A stretch of DNA of 63,868 bases, filler included, from Collodictyon triciliatum (Eukaryota): assembly GCA_043381765.1 (NCBI GenBank). It is 14 parts of 14 records of this genome, joined end to end, with 100 filler letters (N's around TTAATTAATTAA, not from the genome) between each part and the next. Parts side by side here need not be neighbours in the genome. Positions count along the whole stretch, not along the records: positions 11,270 to 15,332 come from JBHJMP010006534.1; 13 more parts are not named here. The stretch is one strand, 5' to 3'. Under the pieces are notes generated by a model. That model saw only the letters and a program-made list of their open reading frames with translations, was not told the origin of the DNA and did not search any database. Below, in pieces: positions 11,522 to 15,147 of this stretch (positions are counted from its first letter, which is position 1; every line of letters starts with the position of its first letter). The translations under genes and the position numbers were made by a program.

Positions 11522-14500
11522 AGGCCTGCGCGTTATCCACCCGGGGAGCTGATTTGTCCTGTCACGCCCGAGCTGCTATCATCACTACTCTGACATCTGT
11601 TCAACCGCATAGACCAGTGAGGCATTTAGTACATGCTAAACGCATTGACAAAGTCTCTCGACCTTTTGTCGATGAATCCAAACGACGTATTCTGCAAACA
11701 AAACTGATGGCCTTGAAGAGGGAAACCCTCCGCCATGATTTGAAGGCTATGGCCTTTGTTATCGATAGAGATGAAAGTGTATGTCAGGCTCTTTTGCAGA
11801 TTGTGAAAGCGTCTAGAACATCTCATGAACCTATTGCAATTGAGCTTGCATCCCGAGCGATAACACTACTAAACTACACAAACTTTTCTCTCTCTATTCT
11901 TGATCTCTCTGGAGTTCAAATACCACATTCAGACCTTTCAGAAGCATTGTTGGACGGTACAGACTTGAGTCATGCAAATCTTCAAGGTGCAGATCTGACA
12001 AGCAGTTATCTTGGTTCATGCAATCTACAAGGCGCGAACCTTGAAAATATTAACTTTGGGCATCTGAGAATCAATATCGGGATAAAGACAAAGATCCGAC
12101 GCGCTTGCTTTATGTCGCCGCTATTCCGATGGGGGAAAGATTTCAAAGAGCATGGTGAGGAACTTGTATTCTACAAAGAAAGAGAAAAAGAAAAGGCAAT
12201 ATCTTTGCAGAACGCAGTCCTTGCCTGTGCATTGGAGGACAATACCATTCGCGTTTGGGACGTATTTAACGATAGGCAGCTCTCCTTACTTCGAGGTCAT
12301 GAAGATTTCATATCTGCAATGGTCACCTTTGAAAGCCCTGGAATAGACCATTTGATAGCATCGGCCGGATGGGACCAATCTGTGTGTATATGGAACATTA
12401 AGACTGGGTCTCTTGAAAGTCGGTATATGGAACACCAAGATGCAATCACATGCCTTTGTGCAATCGAACATCTTTCGTCAGGATGCTACTTGGCATCGGG
12501 TGGTTGGGATCGCACAATATGTATATGGGACGTGAGAAATCGGCAGCTTTGTAGAAAATGGACAGTAGGCTCAAGATCTATCTTTTGCATTTGTTCAGTG
12601 AAGGGTCCCAGAGGGGAAGCATGGCTAGCTTCTGCTGGCGGGCATTTCTCTATCGAGATATGGGATGTAACGACGGGGAATGTTGTCAGAGTTATTCAAG
12701 ACCTGTTAGGTTTTGTATCATGTATATGCTCAGCCACTCTTACTGGCACAGAAAAGCCTGTCCTAATTACTGGAGGTCATGATAAGTTGGTACATGTATG
12801 GGATCTTGAGACAGGCATGCACCTGTTAAAGTTGCAGGGCCACGCTGCGTCGGTACGAAGCGTTTTGACTGTGAAGAATTGTCATGGCCAAATAAATATT
12901 GTATCAGGTGGGTGTGATAATACGATAATCGTATGGGATTTGGATCAAGCTGCTGCCATCCGAAAGGTTGAATTGCAAACTAAATATTTAAGAGGATTGA
13001 CCCTCTATCAACAACCAGGTGGAGAACCCTGGATAACATTTGGGTGTATTGGGGACTGCTTGTCTATATGGGAATTGAATTCCATCCCCTTGATAAGGAA
13101 AGAAGCAGATGTAGGCTGCCCTCGCTTTCGGGGTCAGACGATCAACATAATTTTCAATCACATTGTTTTGCGTCCCTGCGGAAACAAATGGTTACTATGC
13201 GGTGACTCTGATGGCTCAGTGCAAGTGTGGGATGTAATCTCTGGAAAGCAAATTATACATCACGCGGGTGGCCAAGAGGTATCGAACATTGCCTTCGTCA
13301 CACAGTCTTTGGATGAATGCATTCTGGCTGTCGTCACTGAAAGGAATATCCAACTCATCGACATACTATCGAATGCGCTGATTCTTCAATTCCAACCTTT
13401 ATGCACAAAAGTAAGGTTTATTTATGCTTTACCGCTGCCATCAAAAACTTTCAACAGATGCGATGCTAAAGTTGCCGTTGTCAGCTTTAAAGGAACACTG
13501 GAAATATGGGACATTAACCCCACTGCCCAATACTGGTGCGATCTCCCTTCATCTGCCATTCATATAATATCATTAACTAGCTATATCACCCGAGAAGGCC
13601 GGCTGATGCTCATCACAGGTAGTATCGAAGGTGACATACATATATGGTCTCTCGACGATGCATCCGTGCTATCAGTTCTGAAACATCACAAGTCTTCAGT
13701 AGTCCACTTAGCATATATGAAAAATTCGCTTGGACAAGACTTGCTTCTGTCCATGGAGCTTAGAAGCACTGTGGTAATCTGGGACCTTTCAACATGTAGT
13801 CTCATTAGCCAAGTAGCAGACCACAGTGGCTGGCGCAATGGGCCAGCTCTATTGGGTGATGAGTGGTATGCTGCCATCACAAGAAAGGGATGCATCCAAT
13901 TTCACCATTTATTGCACAATACAACATCTAAATTGAAACTAAGACCTAGAACTTCCTCGCCTTTTGATATTTTATCTGTCAAAGACCATACCGGAGATAT
14001 ATTTCTGGTCTCGCTAAACGAAAACAAAGACATCAATGTATGGAAGGTCTATTGCCCAGAGAAAGAGTCTGCTGGTCGAAAGAGTGGGACCCAAGAGGTG
14101 TCAAGGCCTTGCGATGAAAAGGAATTTATCTTGAATCAAAAAACGATGGCCGCAAATCTTATTATGTCATCACGAAAGTATGCCGCTGACAAAGGCACCT
14201 TCACATTTTGTGGAGCAAGGCTGAGCGAGCCAAACACAAAAAGACTCATGTTTAATCTTGGCGGAGTCAGTTGGGACTCTGACTTTGTCGACTATTGCAA
14301 TTCAAAATATGCTACAAAATTCCAGGCACAAAAGCTTGCCAGATTTTACCAACAGAAACACAACTCAGAAGGATGCGCCTCAGTAACAAATTGGCTCATC
14401 AAGGGTAAAGATATAAATGGGCTGTATAATTTGGCAAAGACTGGCGTGAGGGAAGCCTTCGTGGGTCTACTCATGATTTCCAGAGGAGAAGATAAACACT

Positions 14501-15147
14501 GGAACCATCACAGTCCCCCAGATACGGGGACCGTGCTCGCAGAGGCCTCGATGATGGTGTCCTCGTGCTTTGAAAACGGGTATGGCGTGGATAGAAATCT
14601 ATCCAAATCAATTGATTTTCTTTCCTTGGCCCGGTTAAAATTTTCTCGGGACGTAACGAAGGCAGATATTGAGTTGTTGCTTGGCCTGTCAAAGTCGGGC
14701 TGTCAAGATGCATTCGTACATTTGCGCAACCTTGCCTTGATAGAATGCATGGATGTGGACCGATACGAGCACTTTTTTGCAAGGGCTGCTTATCCTCTTG
14801 CTTGTTTGTACGTAGCAAGCTGTCTGGAGAATGGTTGGGGTACTGAAAAGGATATCATTGCGTCAAAAAAGTGGCTATTGCGGGTAAATCCTCAAGACAC
14901 AGCAATTTTTGGGGAATTCGTGCAACAGGCTCAACAAGGCTCTATGCATGTCGCTGAAGCTTTGCATGCACTTGCGCTGGAGCGAGAGTTTGTGTTGGAC
15001 CACAGAAGATTGAAATGGAGACCAAAATATCCTCTGGCCTCTGTTTCGGCAGCACGCTGTTTTTTGAATGGTTGGGGCGTTGGCGTTGATGTTTTAAAGG
15101 CACGCCAATTAGCAAGAGTTGCGGGTGTGGATGTTGCAGATTTGTAA
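11522..15147 (+). CDS. Terminal exon (about 1200 aa) of a pentapeptide repeat + WD40 + Sel1-like repeat protein; probable NACHT/STAND NLR-like, 5' partial
   Basis: Uninterrupted ORF after a CATAG acceptor. ASRAITLL..LDLSGVQIPHSDLSEALLDGTDLSHANLQGADL pentapeptides; many GH..WD repeats (GHEDFISA..SAGWDQSVCIWN, GGWDRTICIWD, GGHDKLVHVWD); three C[FL][EL]NG[YW]G Sel1-like motifs; TAA stop at 15147. Confidence 0.85.

What the first reader, a model, noticed from the sequence alone, without database searches (positions are those of the whole stretch)
11522..15147. NLR/STAND-like receptor with a pentapeptide-WD40-pentapeptide sensor and an added Sel1-like tail
Seen: the segment LRHDLKAMAFVIDRDESVCQALLQIVKASRTSHEPIAIELASRAITLL, then pentapeptide repeats ending INFG, then roughly 13-14 WD40 blades, then a closing FCGARLSEPNTKRLM segment. 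Established (recalled): this helical cap + pentapeptide + WD40 + closing pentapeptide order follows the NACHT domain in NACHT-WD40 proteins of Mortierellaceae, their Mycoavidus symbionts and ciliates, where the protein normally ends at that point. Inference: this is the C-terminal half of an innate-immunity-type STAND receptor in a flagellate, with the NACHT on the missing upstream exon(s) and an extra 290-aa module I do not recognise in that family. It is the best candidate here for an undescribed system.
Basis: partly seen in the sequence, partly recalled or inferred. Interest (0 to 1): 0.72.

Follow-up and report, generated by a model that had tools for sequence, protein, structure and literature searches.

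The report
Truncated NLR-like gene with Sel1 tail
This is the sensor end of an immune-receptor-like (NLR-type) gene from a freshwater eukaryote, carrying an unusual extra helical-repeat tail. Its ATPase "engine" cannot be seen because the assembled DNA piece stops just upstream.

Summary
A 1213-codon open frame (11506-15147, +) encodes a three-helix cap, about 11 pentapeptide rungs, 14 WD40 blades, a closing motif and a 300-residue Sel1-like tail.

Two things change the reading.

First, the window is a chain of separate ~4 kb contigs joined by N44-TTAATTAATTAA-N44 spacers. The gene fills one contig (11270-15332). The DNA to its left belongs to another contig, so no upstream exon can be found here.

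Second, an exhaustive search with the tail found one database protein, P0201 (2169 aa, unnamed source), that is collinear with this ORF from the cap to the tail, including a non-repeat junction motif. P0201 carries a NACHT-type P-loop domain upstream and aligns end to end with Mortierellaceae-type NACHT-pentapeptide-WD40 proteins.

The ORF is therefore most likely (about 0.65) the last exon of a STAND/NLR-like gene cut off by the assembly. A natural ATPase-less protein starting at Met68 remains possible (about 0.22).

The core architecture is already published for Mortierellomycota and Mycoavidus and is common in bacteria. Only the Sel1-like tail variant looks rare: two proteins seen, and no paper found. 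Interest is moderate to low (0.35).

The parts
11270..15332 (.). The single assembly contig that holds the gene. It lies between two N44-TTAATTAATTAA-N44 spacers. Its 5' end is a (GTATTTTTATCTT)n repeat and its 3' end is a T/C-rich microsatellite.
11506..15147 (+). Stop-to-stop open frame of 1213 codons plus TAA (P0001), with no intron inside it
11520..11521 (+). AG after a pyrimidine-rich stretch. Inferred only.
11506..11706 (+). 67 open codons before the first ATG. They show no similarity to relatives, and their coding score is intermediate.
11707..11709 (+). First in-frame ATG (Met68). It is the alternative start of an ATPase-less protein.
11710..11877 (+). Three-helix cap (residues 69-124) ending in the ASRAITLL motif. 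In relatives this motif follows the NACHT module.
11878..12063 (+). Pentapeptide-repeat beta-helix, about 11 rungs (residues 125-186)
12130..13077 (+). WD40 propeller 1, blades 1-7 (residues 209-524). Modelled with high confidence.
13078..14049 (+). WD40 propeller 2, blades 8-14 (residues 525-848). More degenerate, with patchy model confidence.
14191..14268 (+). Closing motif (residues 896-921). It aligns with the canonical C-terminal motif of NACHT-pentapeptide-WD40 proteins through P0201.
14269..14331 (+). Non-repeat junction motif (residues 922-942), shared only with P0201
14332..15144 (+). All-helical Sel1-like tail. It has three C-x-x-N-G-W/Y-G motifs at residues 1020, 1105 and 1184, a period of about 80-85 aa.
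15172..15177 (+). AATAAA 25 nt after the stop, a possible polyadenylation signal. Inferred only.

Best explanation
The ORF is the large last exon, the sensor half, of a STAND/NLR-like gene of the NACHT-pentapeptide-WD40 family. It has gained a C-terminal Sel1-like repeat tail.

The 5' half of the gene (effector domain plus NACHT ATPase) is missing because the contig breaks in a microsatellite 236 nt upstream of the frame.

The following mechanism is inferred from what is established for STAND NTPases such as Apaf-1 and NLRs; none of it was tested here. In the resting state the two WD40 propellers, bridged to the ATPase by the helical cap and the pentapeptide beta-helix, hold the NACHT module closed. 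Binding of a ligand to the propellers releases it. Nucleotide exchange then drives oligomerisation, which brings the N-terminal domains together to signal. The Sel1-like solenoid would add a second protein-binding surface, acting as an adaptor, a localisation module or an extra sensor.
For: 1. P0201 was the only 1 of the 23 tail hits I scanned by Pfam that carries WD40 and pentapeptide repeats. These 23 came from 114 hits at E <= 1e-3. P0201 is collinear with P0001 from residue 72 (P0201 residue 844) through the cap, pentapeptide, WD40, closing motif, a non-repeat junction motif and the Sel1 tail (27% identity, E 5e-42).

2. The N-terminal part of P0201 has Walker A and Walker B motifs (read by eye in the sequence) and matches Pfam NACHT over profile positions 1-165 of 167 (E 2e-5, 24.9 bits against a cut-off of 26.7). 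P0201 also aligns collinearly with the Mortierellaceae-type NACHT protein P0044 from the P-loop to the propeller (E 3e-53).

3. The cap motif and pentapeptide of P0001 align to residue 1119 of the 1942-aa Benniella protein P0045 and to residue 444 of P0044. In both, this position lies downstream of the ATPase.

4. At least 7 of the 120 listed whole-protein hits carry both NACHT and Pentapeptide in their stored Pfam lists. Those lists are cut, so this is a lower bound.

5. The frame stays open for 67 codons before the first ATG (chance 0.025-0.04). An AG follows a pyrimidine tract at 11520-11521.

6. The contig ends in a simple repeat, which is a usual cause of assembly breaks.

7. The AlphaFold model is confident for the cap, the pentapeptide helix and propeller 1 (block means 76-97). 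The tail model's ten best PDB matches are all Sel1-repeat proteins.
Against: - No P-loop domain is present in the contig or anywhere else in the window. A tblastn search of five NACHT relatives found nothing outside the known region.
- Residues 1-71 show no similarity to any relative.
- The codon score of residues 1-67 is intermediate: 0.013, against 0.14 +/- 0.05 for in-frame windows and -0.20 +/- 0.09 for off-frame windows.
- Met68 sits exactly where the modelled cap helix begins.
- ATPase-less pentapeptide-WD40 proteins exist, for example P0146 at 750 aa, and Atlas clusters of this type appear as leads only.
- The NACHT match of P0201 is just below Pfam's cut-off.
- The WD40 blades are divergent (mean 13% identity, maximum 31%). 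They therefore lack the high internal repeat identity of fungal HET-E-type NLRs (that comparison is recalled, not computed).
Confidence: 0.65

Rival explanations
1. The gene is complete and ATPase-less. The protein starts at Met68 (1146 aa) and consists of cap, pentapeptide, 14 WD40 blades and Sel1 tail. It acts as a scaffold or decoy derived from an NLR-like ancestor, with no nucleotide switch of its own.
For: - Similarity to P0201 and the other relatives starts at residue 72, just after Met68.
- The modelled cap helix starts at Met68.
- The coding score of the 67 upstream codons is only intermediate.
- Pentapeptide-WD40 proteins without an NTPase exist (P0146; Atlas leads).
- AATAAA lies 25 nt after the stop, so the 3' end looks complete.
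Against: - In every relative checked (P0201, P0044, P0045, P0194, P0016) the cap follows an ATPase module.
- 67 open codons upstream of the ATG are unlikely by chance (0.025-0.04).
- Position -3 of the ATG is C, by my reading of the sequence.
Confidence: 0.22
2. The ORF is a dead or chimeric fragment. It could be a recently truncated pseudogene copy, or an assembly artefact joining unrelated pieces.
For: - The contig is only 4 kb long and is bounded by simple repeats.
- Propeller 2 is degenerate, and blades 13-14 are modelled poorly.
Against: - The frame runs 1213 codons without a stop.
- The domain order is collinear with P0201 throughout.
- Ten short contigs from four freshwater or lake metagenome runs of three studies match coding parts with 0-2 differences in 151-233 nt. 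The sequence therefore exists as DNA outside this assembly.
Confidence: 0.08
3. The contig is foreign, for example from a bacterial or viral contaminant or symbiont, and is not a gene of the host eukaryote.
For: - The 3.6 kb ORF has no intron, whereas genes on neighbouring contigs are split into short exons.
- The family is known for transfer between bacteria and fungi (PMC11291939).
Against: - The flanks are the same kind of T-rich microsatellite seen on the other contigs.
- ORF G+C is 0.445, near the 0.40-0.44 of the more G+C-rich windows elsewhere in the window.
- The junction motif was not found in 185,579 prokaryotic genomes or in the viral contigs.
- An AATAAA follows the stop.
Confidence: 0.05

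Closest known systems
P0201, an unnamed 2169-aa protein from the 50%-identity representative library (source and organism could not be looked up)
   Same: It has the same order from the cap onward: cap with the A-N-A-I-T-I-L-N-Y type motif, pentapeptide, WD40, closing motif, a shared non-repeat junction (D/E-F-x-D/E-Y-C-N-S-K ... F-Q-A) and a long-period Sel1-like tail with E-C-Y-x-x-G-W-G motifs.
   Different: Identity is only 27%. P0201 has one propeller (WD40 hits about 967-1290) where P0001 has two. Its tail is about 830 aa against 300 aa. Its NACHT and a weak ARM_5 match are visible, whereas the upstream part of P0001 is missing.
NACHT-PPR-WD40 NOD-like receptors of Mortierellomycota and Mycoavidus cysteinexigens (PMC11291939; N-terminal helical domain in PMC9815663). 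Passages read.
   Same: It has the same cap motif, pentapeptide stretch, roughly 14 WD40 repeats and closing motif ...V-x-G-L-...-L-L-x-Q-R-G-A (P0044, P0045, P0194).
   Different: Identity is about 24% and is mostly WD40-driven. These proteins end 60-80 aa after the closing motif and have no Sel1 tail. The ATPase is not seen in P0001.
Bacterial NACHT-pentapeptide-WD40 proteins (for example P0016 with NNH5, NA-iREase1 and NACHT; P0017 from Sorangium) within the bacterial NLR-related proteins of Kibby et al. (10.1101/2022.07.19.500537; passages read)
   Same: The sensor layout is the same. The canonical closing motif E-G-M-N-I-T-G-x-x-G-L-T-x-x-Q-K-x-x-L-K-x-L-G-A was matched by my pattern in 9 of 120 hits.
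   Different: They are bacterial, have other effector domains and lack a Sel1 tail. An antiphage role has been shown only for other NACHT clades. The 'clade 11' label comes from earlier AI notes and was not found in the main text; the supplementary table was not seen.
Apaf-1 (a STAND ATPase with two WD40 propellers)
   Same: This is the working model for a double propeller that gates a STAND ATPase. Apaf-1 chains rank 9-10 in the Foldseek search with the whole model.
   Different: Apaf-1 has an NB-ARC ATPase, not NACHT, and 7+8 blades. It has no pentapeptide helix and no Sel1 tail. The fold match reflects only the general WD40 resemblance.
Sel1-like repeat (SLR) proteins: LceB, LpnE, HcpC, Oxalobacter SLR proteins, SEL1L
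   Same: Pfam Sel1 scores above the cut-off. The ten best PDB fold matches of the tail model are all SLR proteins, with E from 2e-5 to 6.5e-4.
   Different: The repeat period is about 80-85 aa, against 36-44 aa (the canonical figure is recalled). TM-scores are low (0.21-0.33). A sequence search of PDB found nothing. The best sequence hits reach only E 2e-14.

Membership tests
NACHT-pentapeptide-WD40 STAND/NLR-like proteins | P-loop NTPase (NACHT) module with Walker A and Walker B motifs upstream of the repeats | tested here: inconclusive
   The module is absent from the 236 nt available upstream and from the rest of the window. The contig ends there, so presence in the real gene cannot be decided. 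It is present in the collinear relative P0201.
NACHT-pentapeptide-WD40 STAND/NLR-like proteins | Helical cap with the A-x-x-A-I-T-x-L motif, followed directly by pentapeptide repeats | tested here: met
   BLASTP to P0045, P0044 and P0201. Pfam Pentapeptide at E 4.7e-13. The model is confident here.
NACHT-pentapeptide-WD40 STAND/NLR-like proteins | Long WD40 array (two propellers) | tested here: met
   14 blades, Pfam WD40 and propeller families, and the model.
NACHT-pentapeptide-WD40 STAND/NLR-like proteins | C-terminal closing motif after the last blade | tested here: met
   Residues 896-921 align to P0201's canonical motif. The motif was also seen in 9 of 120 hits. Direct BLASTP to P0044 did not pick it up, and the model is not confident here.
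Sel1-like repeat (PF08238) proteins | Sel1 profile match above the curated cut-off, and an alpha/alpha solenoid fold | tested here: met
   40.0 bits against a cut-off of 30.7 on the tail. The tail model has 16 helices and mean pLDDT 69.9. The top ten PDB fold matches are SLR proteins, though TM-scores are only 0.21-0.33.
Fungal HET-E/NWD-type NLRs with highly conserved WD40 repeats | Very high identity between neighbouring repeats (recalled as the hallmark of this group) | tested here: not met
   Mean pairwise blade identity is 13% and the maximum is 31%.
Bacterial antiphage NACHT (bNACHT) systems | Prokaryotic genomic context and a NACHT module | tested here: not met
   The flanks look eukaryotic and an AATAAA follows the stop. 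The junction motif is absent from the prokaryotic genome collection. No NACHT is seen.

The most novel reading that the evidence does not exclude
P0001 and P0201 define a eukaryotic subfamily of NACHT-pentapeptide-WD40 receptors. In it a long-period Sel1-like solenoid has been welded to the normally terminal closing motif, giving a two-surface sensor: a propeller plus a solenoid. On this reading the family, known so far from Mortierellomycota and their endobacteria, has spread into freshwater protists and been re-engineered there as part of a protist innate-immunity or symbiont-management system.
Probability: 0.3. Interest if true: 0.55.

Novelty: new variant of a known kind. Interest (0 to 1): 0.35.

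Why it matters
NLR-like STAND receptors are well studied in animals, plants, fungi and now bacteria, but little studied in free-living protists.

A freshwater eukaryote carrying the NACHT-pentapeptide-WD40 sensor layout widens the known range of a family so far discussed as a Mycoavidus-to-Mortierellomycota transfer. The added Sel1-like tail is a concrete, testable example of how new binding modules are bolted onto an NLR sensor.

The value is limited. The gene is truncated by the assembly, only one other protein shares the layout, and no function has been tested for this family.

Tried and rejected
- **Whole genome.** None is held for this window, so paralogues could not be counted.
- **Whole-protein search.** It gave 684 hits at E <= 1e-3 among 8000 scored candidates. 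All had at most 31% identity and were WD40-driven.
- **Search with residues 60-235.** The 73 hits were swamped by generic pentapeptide proteins. I noted only two with WD40 families in their stored lists: P0194, also with NACHT, and P0146, without.
- **Tail search among proteins of 667-2123 aa.** Only 2 hits among 4624 candidates: a Hyaloraphidium kinase-Sel1 protein (E 1.2e-9) and P0196.
- **The search for related loci.** Nothing passed tblastn in metagenome contigs with P0001 or with the junction alignment A1, nor in prokaryotic genomes or viral contigs.
- **PDB sequence search with the tail.** 0 hits.
- **ESM Atlas.** Best scores were 0.85 and 0.80 (WD40; Sel1/TPR). These are leads only.
- **Earlier findings of this scan.** Nothing by place or by sequence.
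- **Sequencing runs.** No RNA holder is listed, so expression and the 5' end could not be examined. The pieces laid at 11271-11365 were imperfect repeat matches (up to 5 differences in about 35-68 nt) and gave no 5' extension.
- **Alternative gene model.** A six-codon first exon starting at ATG 11438, joined by a 50-nt GT-AG intron (11456-11505) to 11506, is in frame, by my reading of the sequence. I rejected it as unlikely because intron gaps on a neighbouring contig look like 100 nt or more (by eye). Joining that same exon to 11522 runs into a stop.
- **Structure.** The closing motif, the linker and blades 13-14 have pLDDT below 50 in the whole model. Whether the closing segment packs onto the pentapeptide helix could not be judged.
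- **Literature.** Searches for NACHT + Sel1 + pentapeptide (3 papers) and for NACHT, Sel1, WD40, protist (25 papers with at least 3 of the 4 terms, 12 listed) showed no title or abstract describing this architecture. Only listings and abstracts were seen.
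Full report
**What the window is**

The 63,868-base window is not one stretch of chromosome. It holds 13 spacers of the form 44 N, TTAATTAATTAA, 44 N. The pieces between them are mostly 4,055-4,064 bases long and run in falling order of size; three longer pieces break the order. TTAATTAATTAA gives a stop in all six frames. Linkers containing it are a published way of chaining contigs into a pseudo-chromosome (bioRxiv 10.1101/2023.02.08.527609, one passage read).

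The finding lies wholly inside one such contig, 11270-15332 (4,063 bases). This contig starts in a (GTATTTTTATCTT)n repeat and ends in a T/C-rich microsatellite. The DNA to the left of 11170, which carries exons that look PH-domain-like by eye (not scanned against Pfam), is a different contig. It cannot hold upstream exons of this gene.

**The observation**

A single frame is open from 11506 to the TAA at 15145-15147, giving 1213 codons (P0001).

- Pfam finds Pentapeptide (E 4.7e-13), WD40 (E 2.5e-23) with many propeller families across residues 230-780, and Sel1 above its cut-off.
- I located 14 blade ends and cut the blades there, which gives two seven-bladed propellers.
- An AlphaFold model of residues 68-1213, built on a 60-row alignment, has mean pLDDT 61.9. 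It is confident for three cap helices, about 11 beta-rungs spaced five residues apart, and propeller 1 (block means 76-97). It is patchy for propeller 2. It is below 50 for blades 13-14, the linker and the closing motif.
- The tail modelled alone (39-row alignment, mean pLDDT 69.9) is all-helical with 16 helices. Its ten best PDB fold matches are all Sel1-repeat proteins (E 2e-5 to 6.5e-4), although TM-scores are only 0.21-0.33.
- The tail carries three C-x-x-N-G-W/Y-G motifs about 80-85 residues apart. That period is roughly twice the usual Sel1 period (the usual figure is recalled).

**Relatives**

The whole-protein search gave only WD40-driven hits of 22-31% identity. At least 7 of the 120 listed hits combine NACHT and Pentapeptide in their stored Pfam lists; those lists are cut, so this is a lower bound.

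BLASTP aligns the cap motif and pentapeptide stretch of P0001 to residue 1119 of the 1942-aa Benniella protein P0045 and to residue 444 of P0044. Both positions lie downstream of a P-loop.

The decisive result came from the exhaustive HMMER search with the tail, residues 880-1213. It gave 114 hits at E <= 1e-3, the best at 2e-14. I scanned 23 of them against Pfam, picking mainly long proteins and the top hits. Twenty-two are generic Sel1-rich proteins: three with a kinase; two with AAA; one each with TIR, caspase, dynamin, patatin or DUF4145; the rest with Sel1 or TPR only.

The remaining one, P0201 (2169 aa), is collinear with P0001 from residue 72 onward. The shared order is cap, pentapeptide, WD40, closing motif, a non-repeat junction motif and a Sel1-like tail with the same long period.

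The first 892 residues of P0201 match Pfam NACHT over almost the whole profile (positions 1-165 of 167; E 2e-5; 24.9 bits, just under the 26.7 cut-off). They also match ARM_5 weakly. P0201 aligns end to end with P0044 from the Walker A motif to the propeller (E 3e-53). The closing motif of P0201 fits the canonical motif that my pattern matched in 9 of 120 relatives, and the closing segment of P0001 aligns to it.

**What is known**

[quoted passage not shown] A long helical N-terminal NLR domain shared with Mycoavidus is described in PMC9815663 (passages read).

Kibby et al. list beta-propellers and pentapeptide repeats among the sensor repeats of bacterial NACHT proteins (10.1101/2022.07.19.500537, passages read). 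Earlier AI notes of this scan call the bacterial NACHT-pentapeptide-(WD40)14 layout a catalogued family. I could not confirm their 'clade 11' label in the main text.

No title or abstract in two searches described a NACHT-pentapeptide-WD40-Sel1 layout. The junction motif was not found in JGI metagenome contigs, in 185,579 prokaryotic genomes or in viral contigs.

**Is the ATPase there?**

It cannot be shown.

- The contig offers only 236 nt upstream of the frame, all of it simple repeat or AT-rich.
- A tblastn search of five NACHT relatives found no ATPase-like region anywhere in the window.

In favour of a missing 5' half:

- Every collinear relative has the ATPase before the cap.
- The frame is open for 67 codons before the first ATG (chance 0.025-0.04).
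- An AG follows a pyrimidine tract at 11520-11521.

Against it:

- Residues 1-71 resemble nothing.
- Their codon score is intermediate.
- Met68 coincides with the start of the modelled cap.
- ATPase-less pentapeptide-WD40 proteins exist (P0146).

I put the truncated-NLR reading at 0.65 and the ATPase-less protein at 0.22.

**Other points**

- The blades are divergent (mean 13% identity), so there is no sign of the repeat homogenisation seen in fungal HET-E-type NLRs.
- The 3.6 kb ORF has no intron, while genes on neighbouring contigs are split into short exons. This fits a gene of foreign origin.
- The flanks, the G+C content (0.445) and an AATAAA 25 nt after the stop look like the host's.
- Ten short contigs (151-233 nt, 0-2 differences) from four freshwater or lake metagenome runs of three studies match coding parts of the gene. 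The organism, or a very close relative, therefore lives in fresh water.
- Whether it is a flagellate was not tested.

**Verdict**

This is a real gene fragment and a new variant of a known kind. It is the sensor half of a NACHT-pentapeptide-WD40-type protein extended by a diverged Sel1-like tail, a layout shared so far with one other database protein. It is moderately interesting for NLR evolution in protists, but it is not a new system.

Noticed in passing
whole window; spacers at 4065-4164, 11170-11269, 15333-15432 and ten more: The window is a pseudo-molecule of separate ~4 kb contigs, mostly sorted by falling size and joined by N44-TTAATTAATTAA-N44 linkers. Any finding that spans a linker would join unrelated DNA.
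   Followed up: yes
window 54473-56194 (+), inside contig 50244-57517: A second STAND-type signalling gene, split by introns. Some exons look like a class III nucleotidyl cyclase (read by eye, recalled motif). They are followed by an exon with an AAA_16 P-loop (Pfam E 9.3e-7, 29.9 bits, below the 32.6 cut-off).
   Followed up: partly
window 9330-10780 (+), inside contig 4165-11169: Several short exons in different frames look like PH domains. This was read by eye and not scanned. This is the DNA that could have been mistaken for upstream exons of the finding.
   Followed up: no
window 42826-43533 (-): An open frame with a protein kinase domain (Pfam Pkinase, E 1.8e-23).
   Followed up: no
window 11436-11521: A short imperfect direct duplication (tcatgt...tttcatag, twice) sits just before the frame. 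It creates two AG sites and a six-codon ATG mini-frame at 11438.
   Followed up: partly
window 11445-14839 (parts): Near-identical 151-233 nt contigs of this gene occur in freshwater and lake metagenome runs of three studies. This indicates a freshwater organism.
   Followed up: partly
window 21381-23396 (-): A 672-codon open frame with no Pfam match at E <= 0.001.
   Followed up: no
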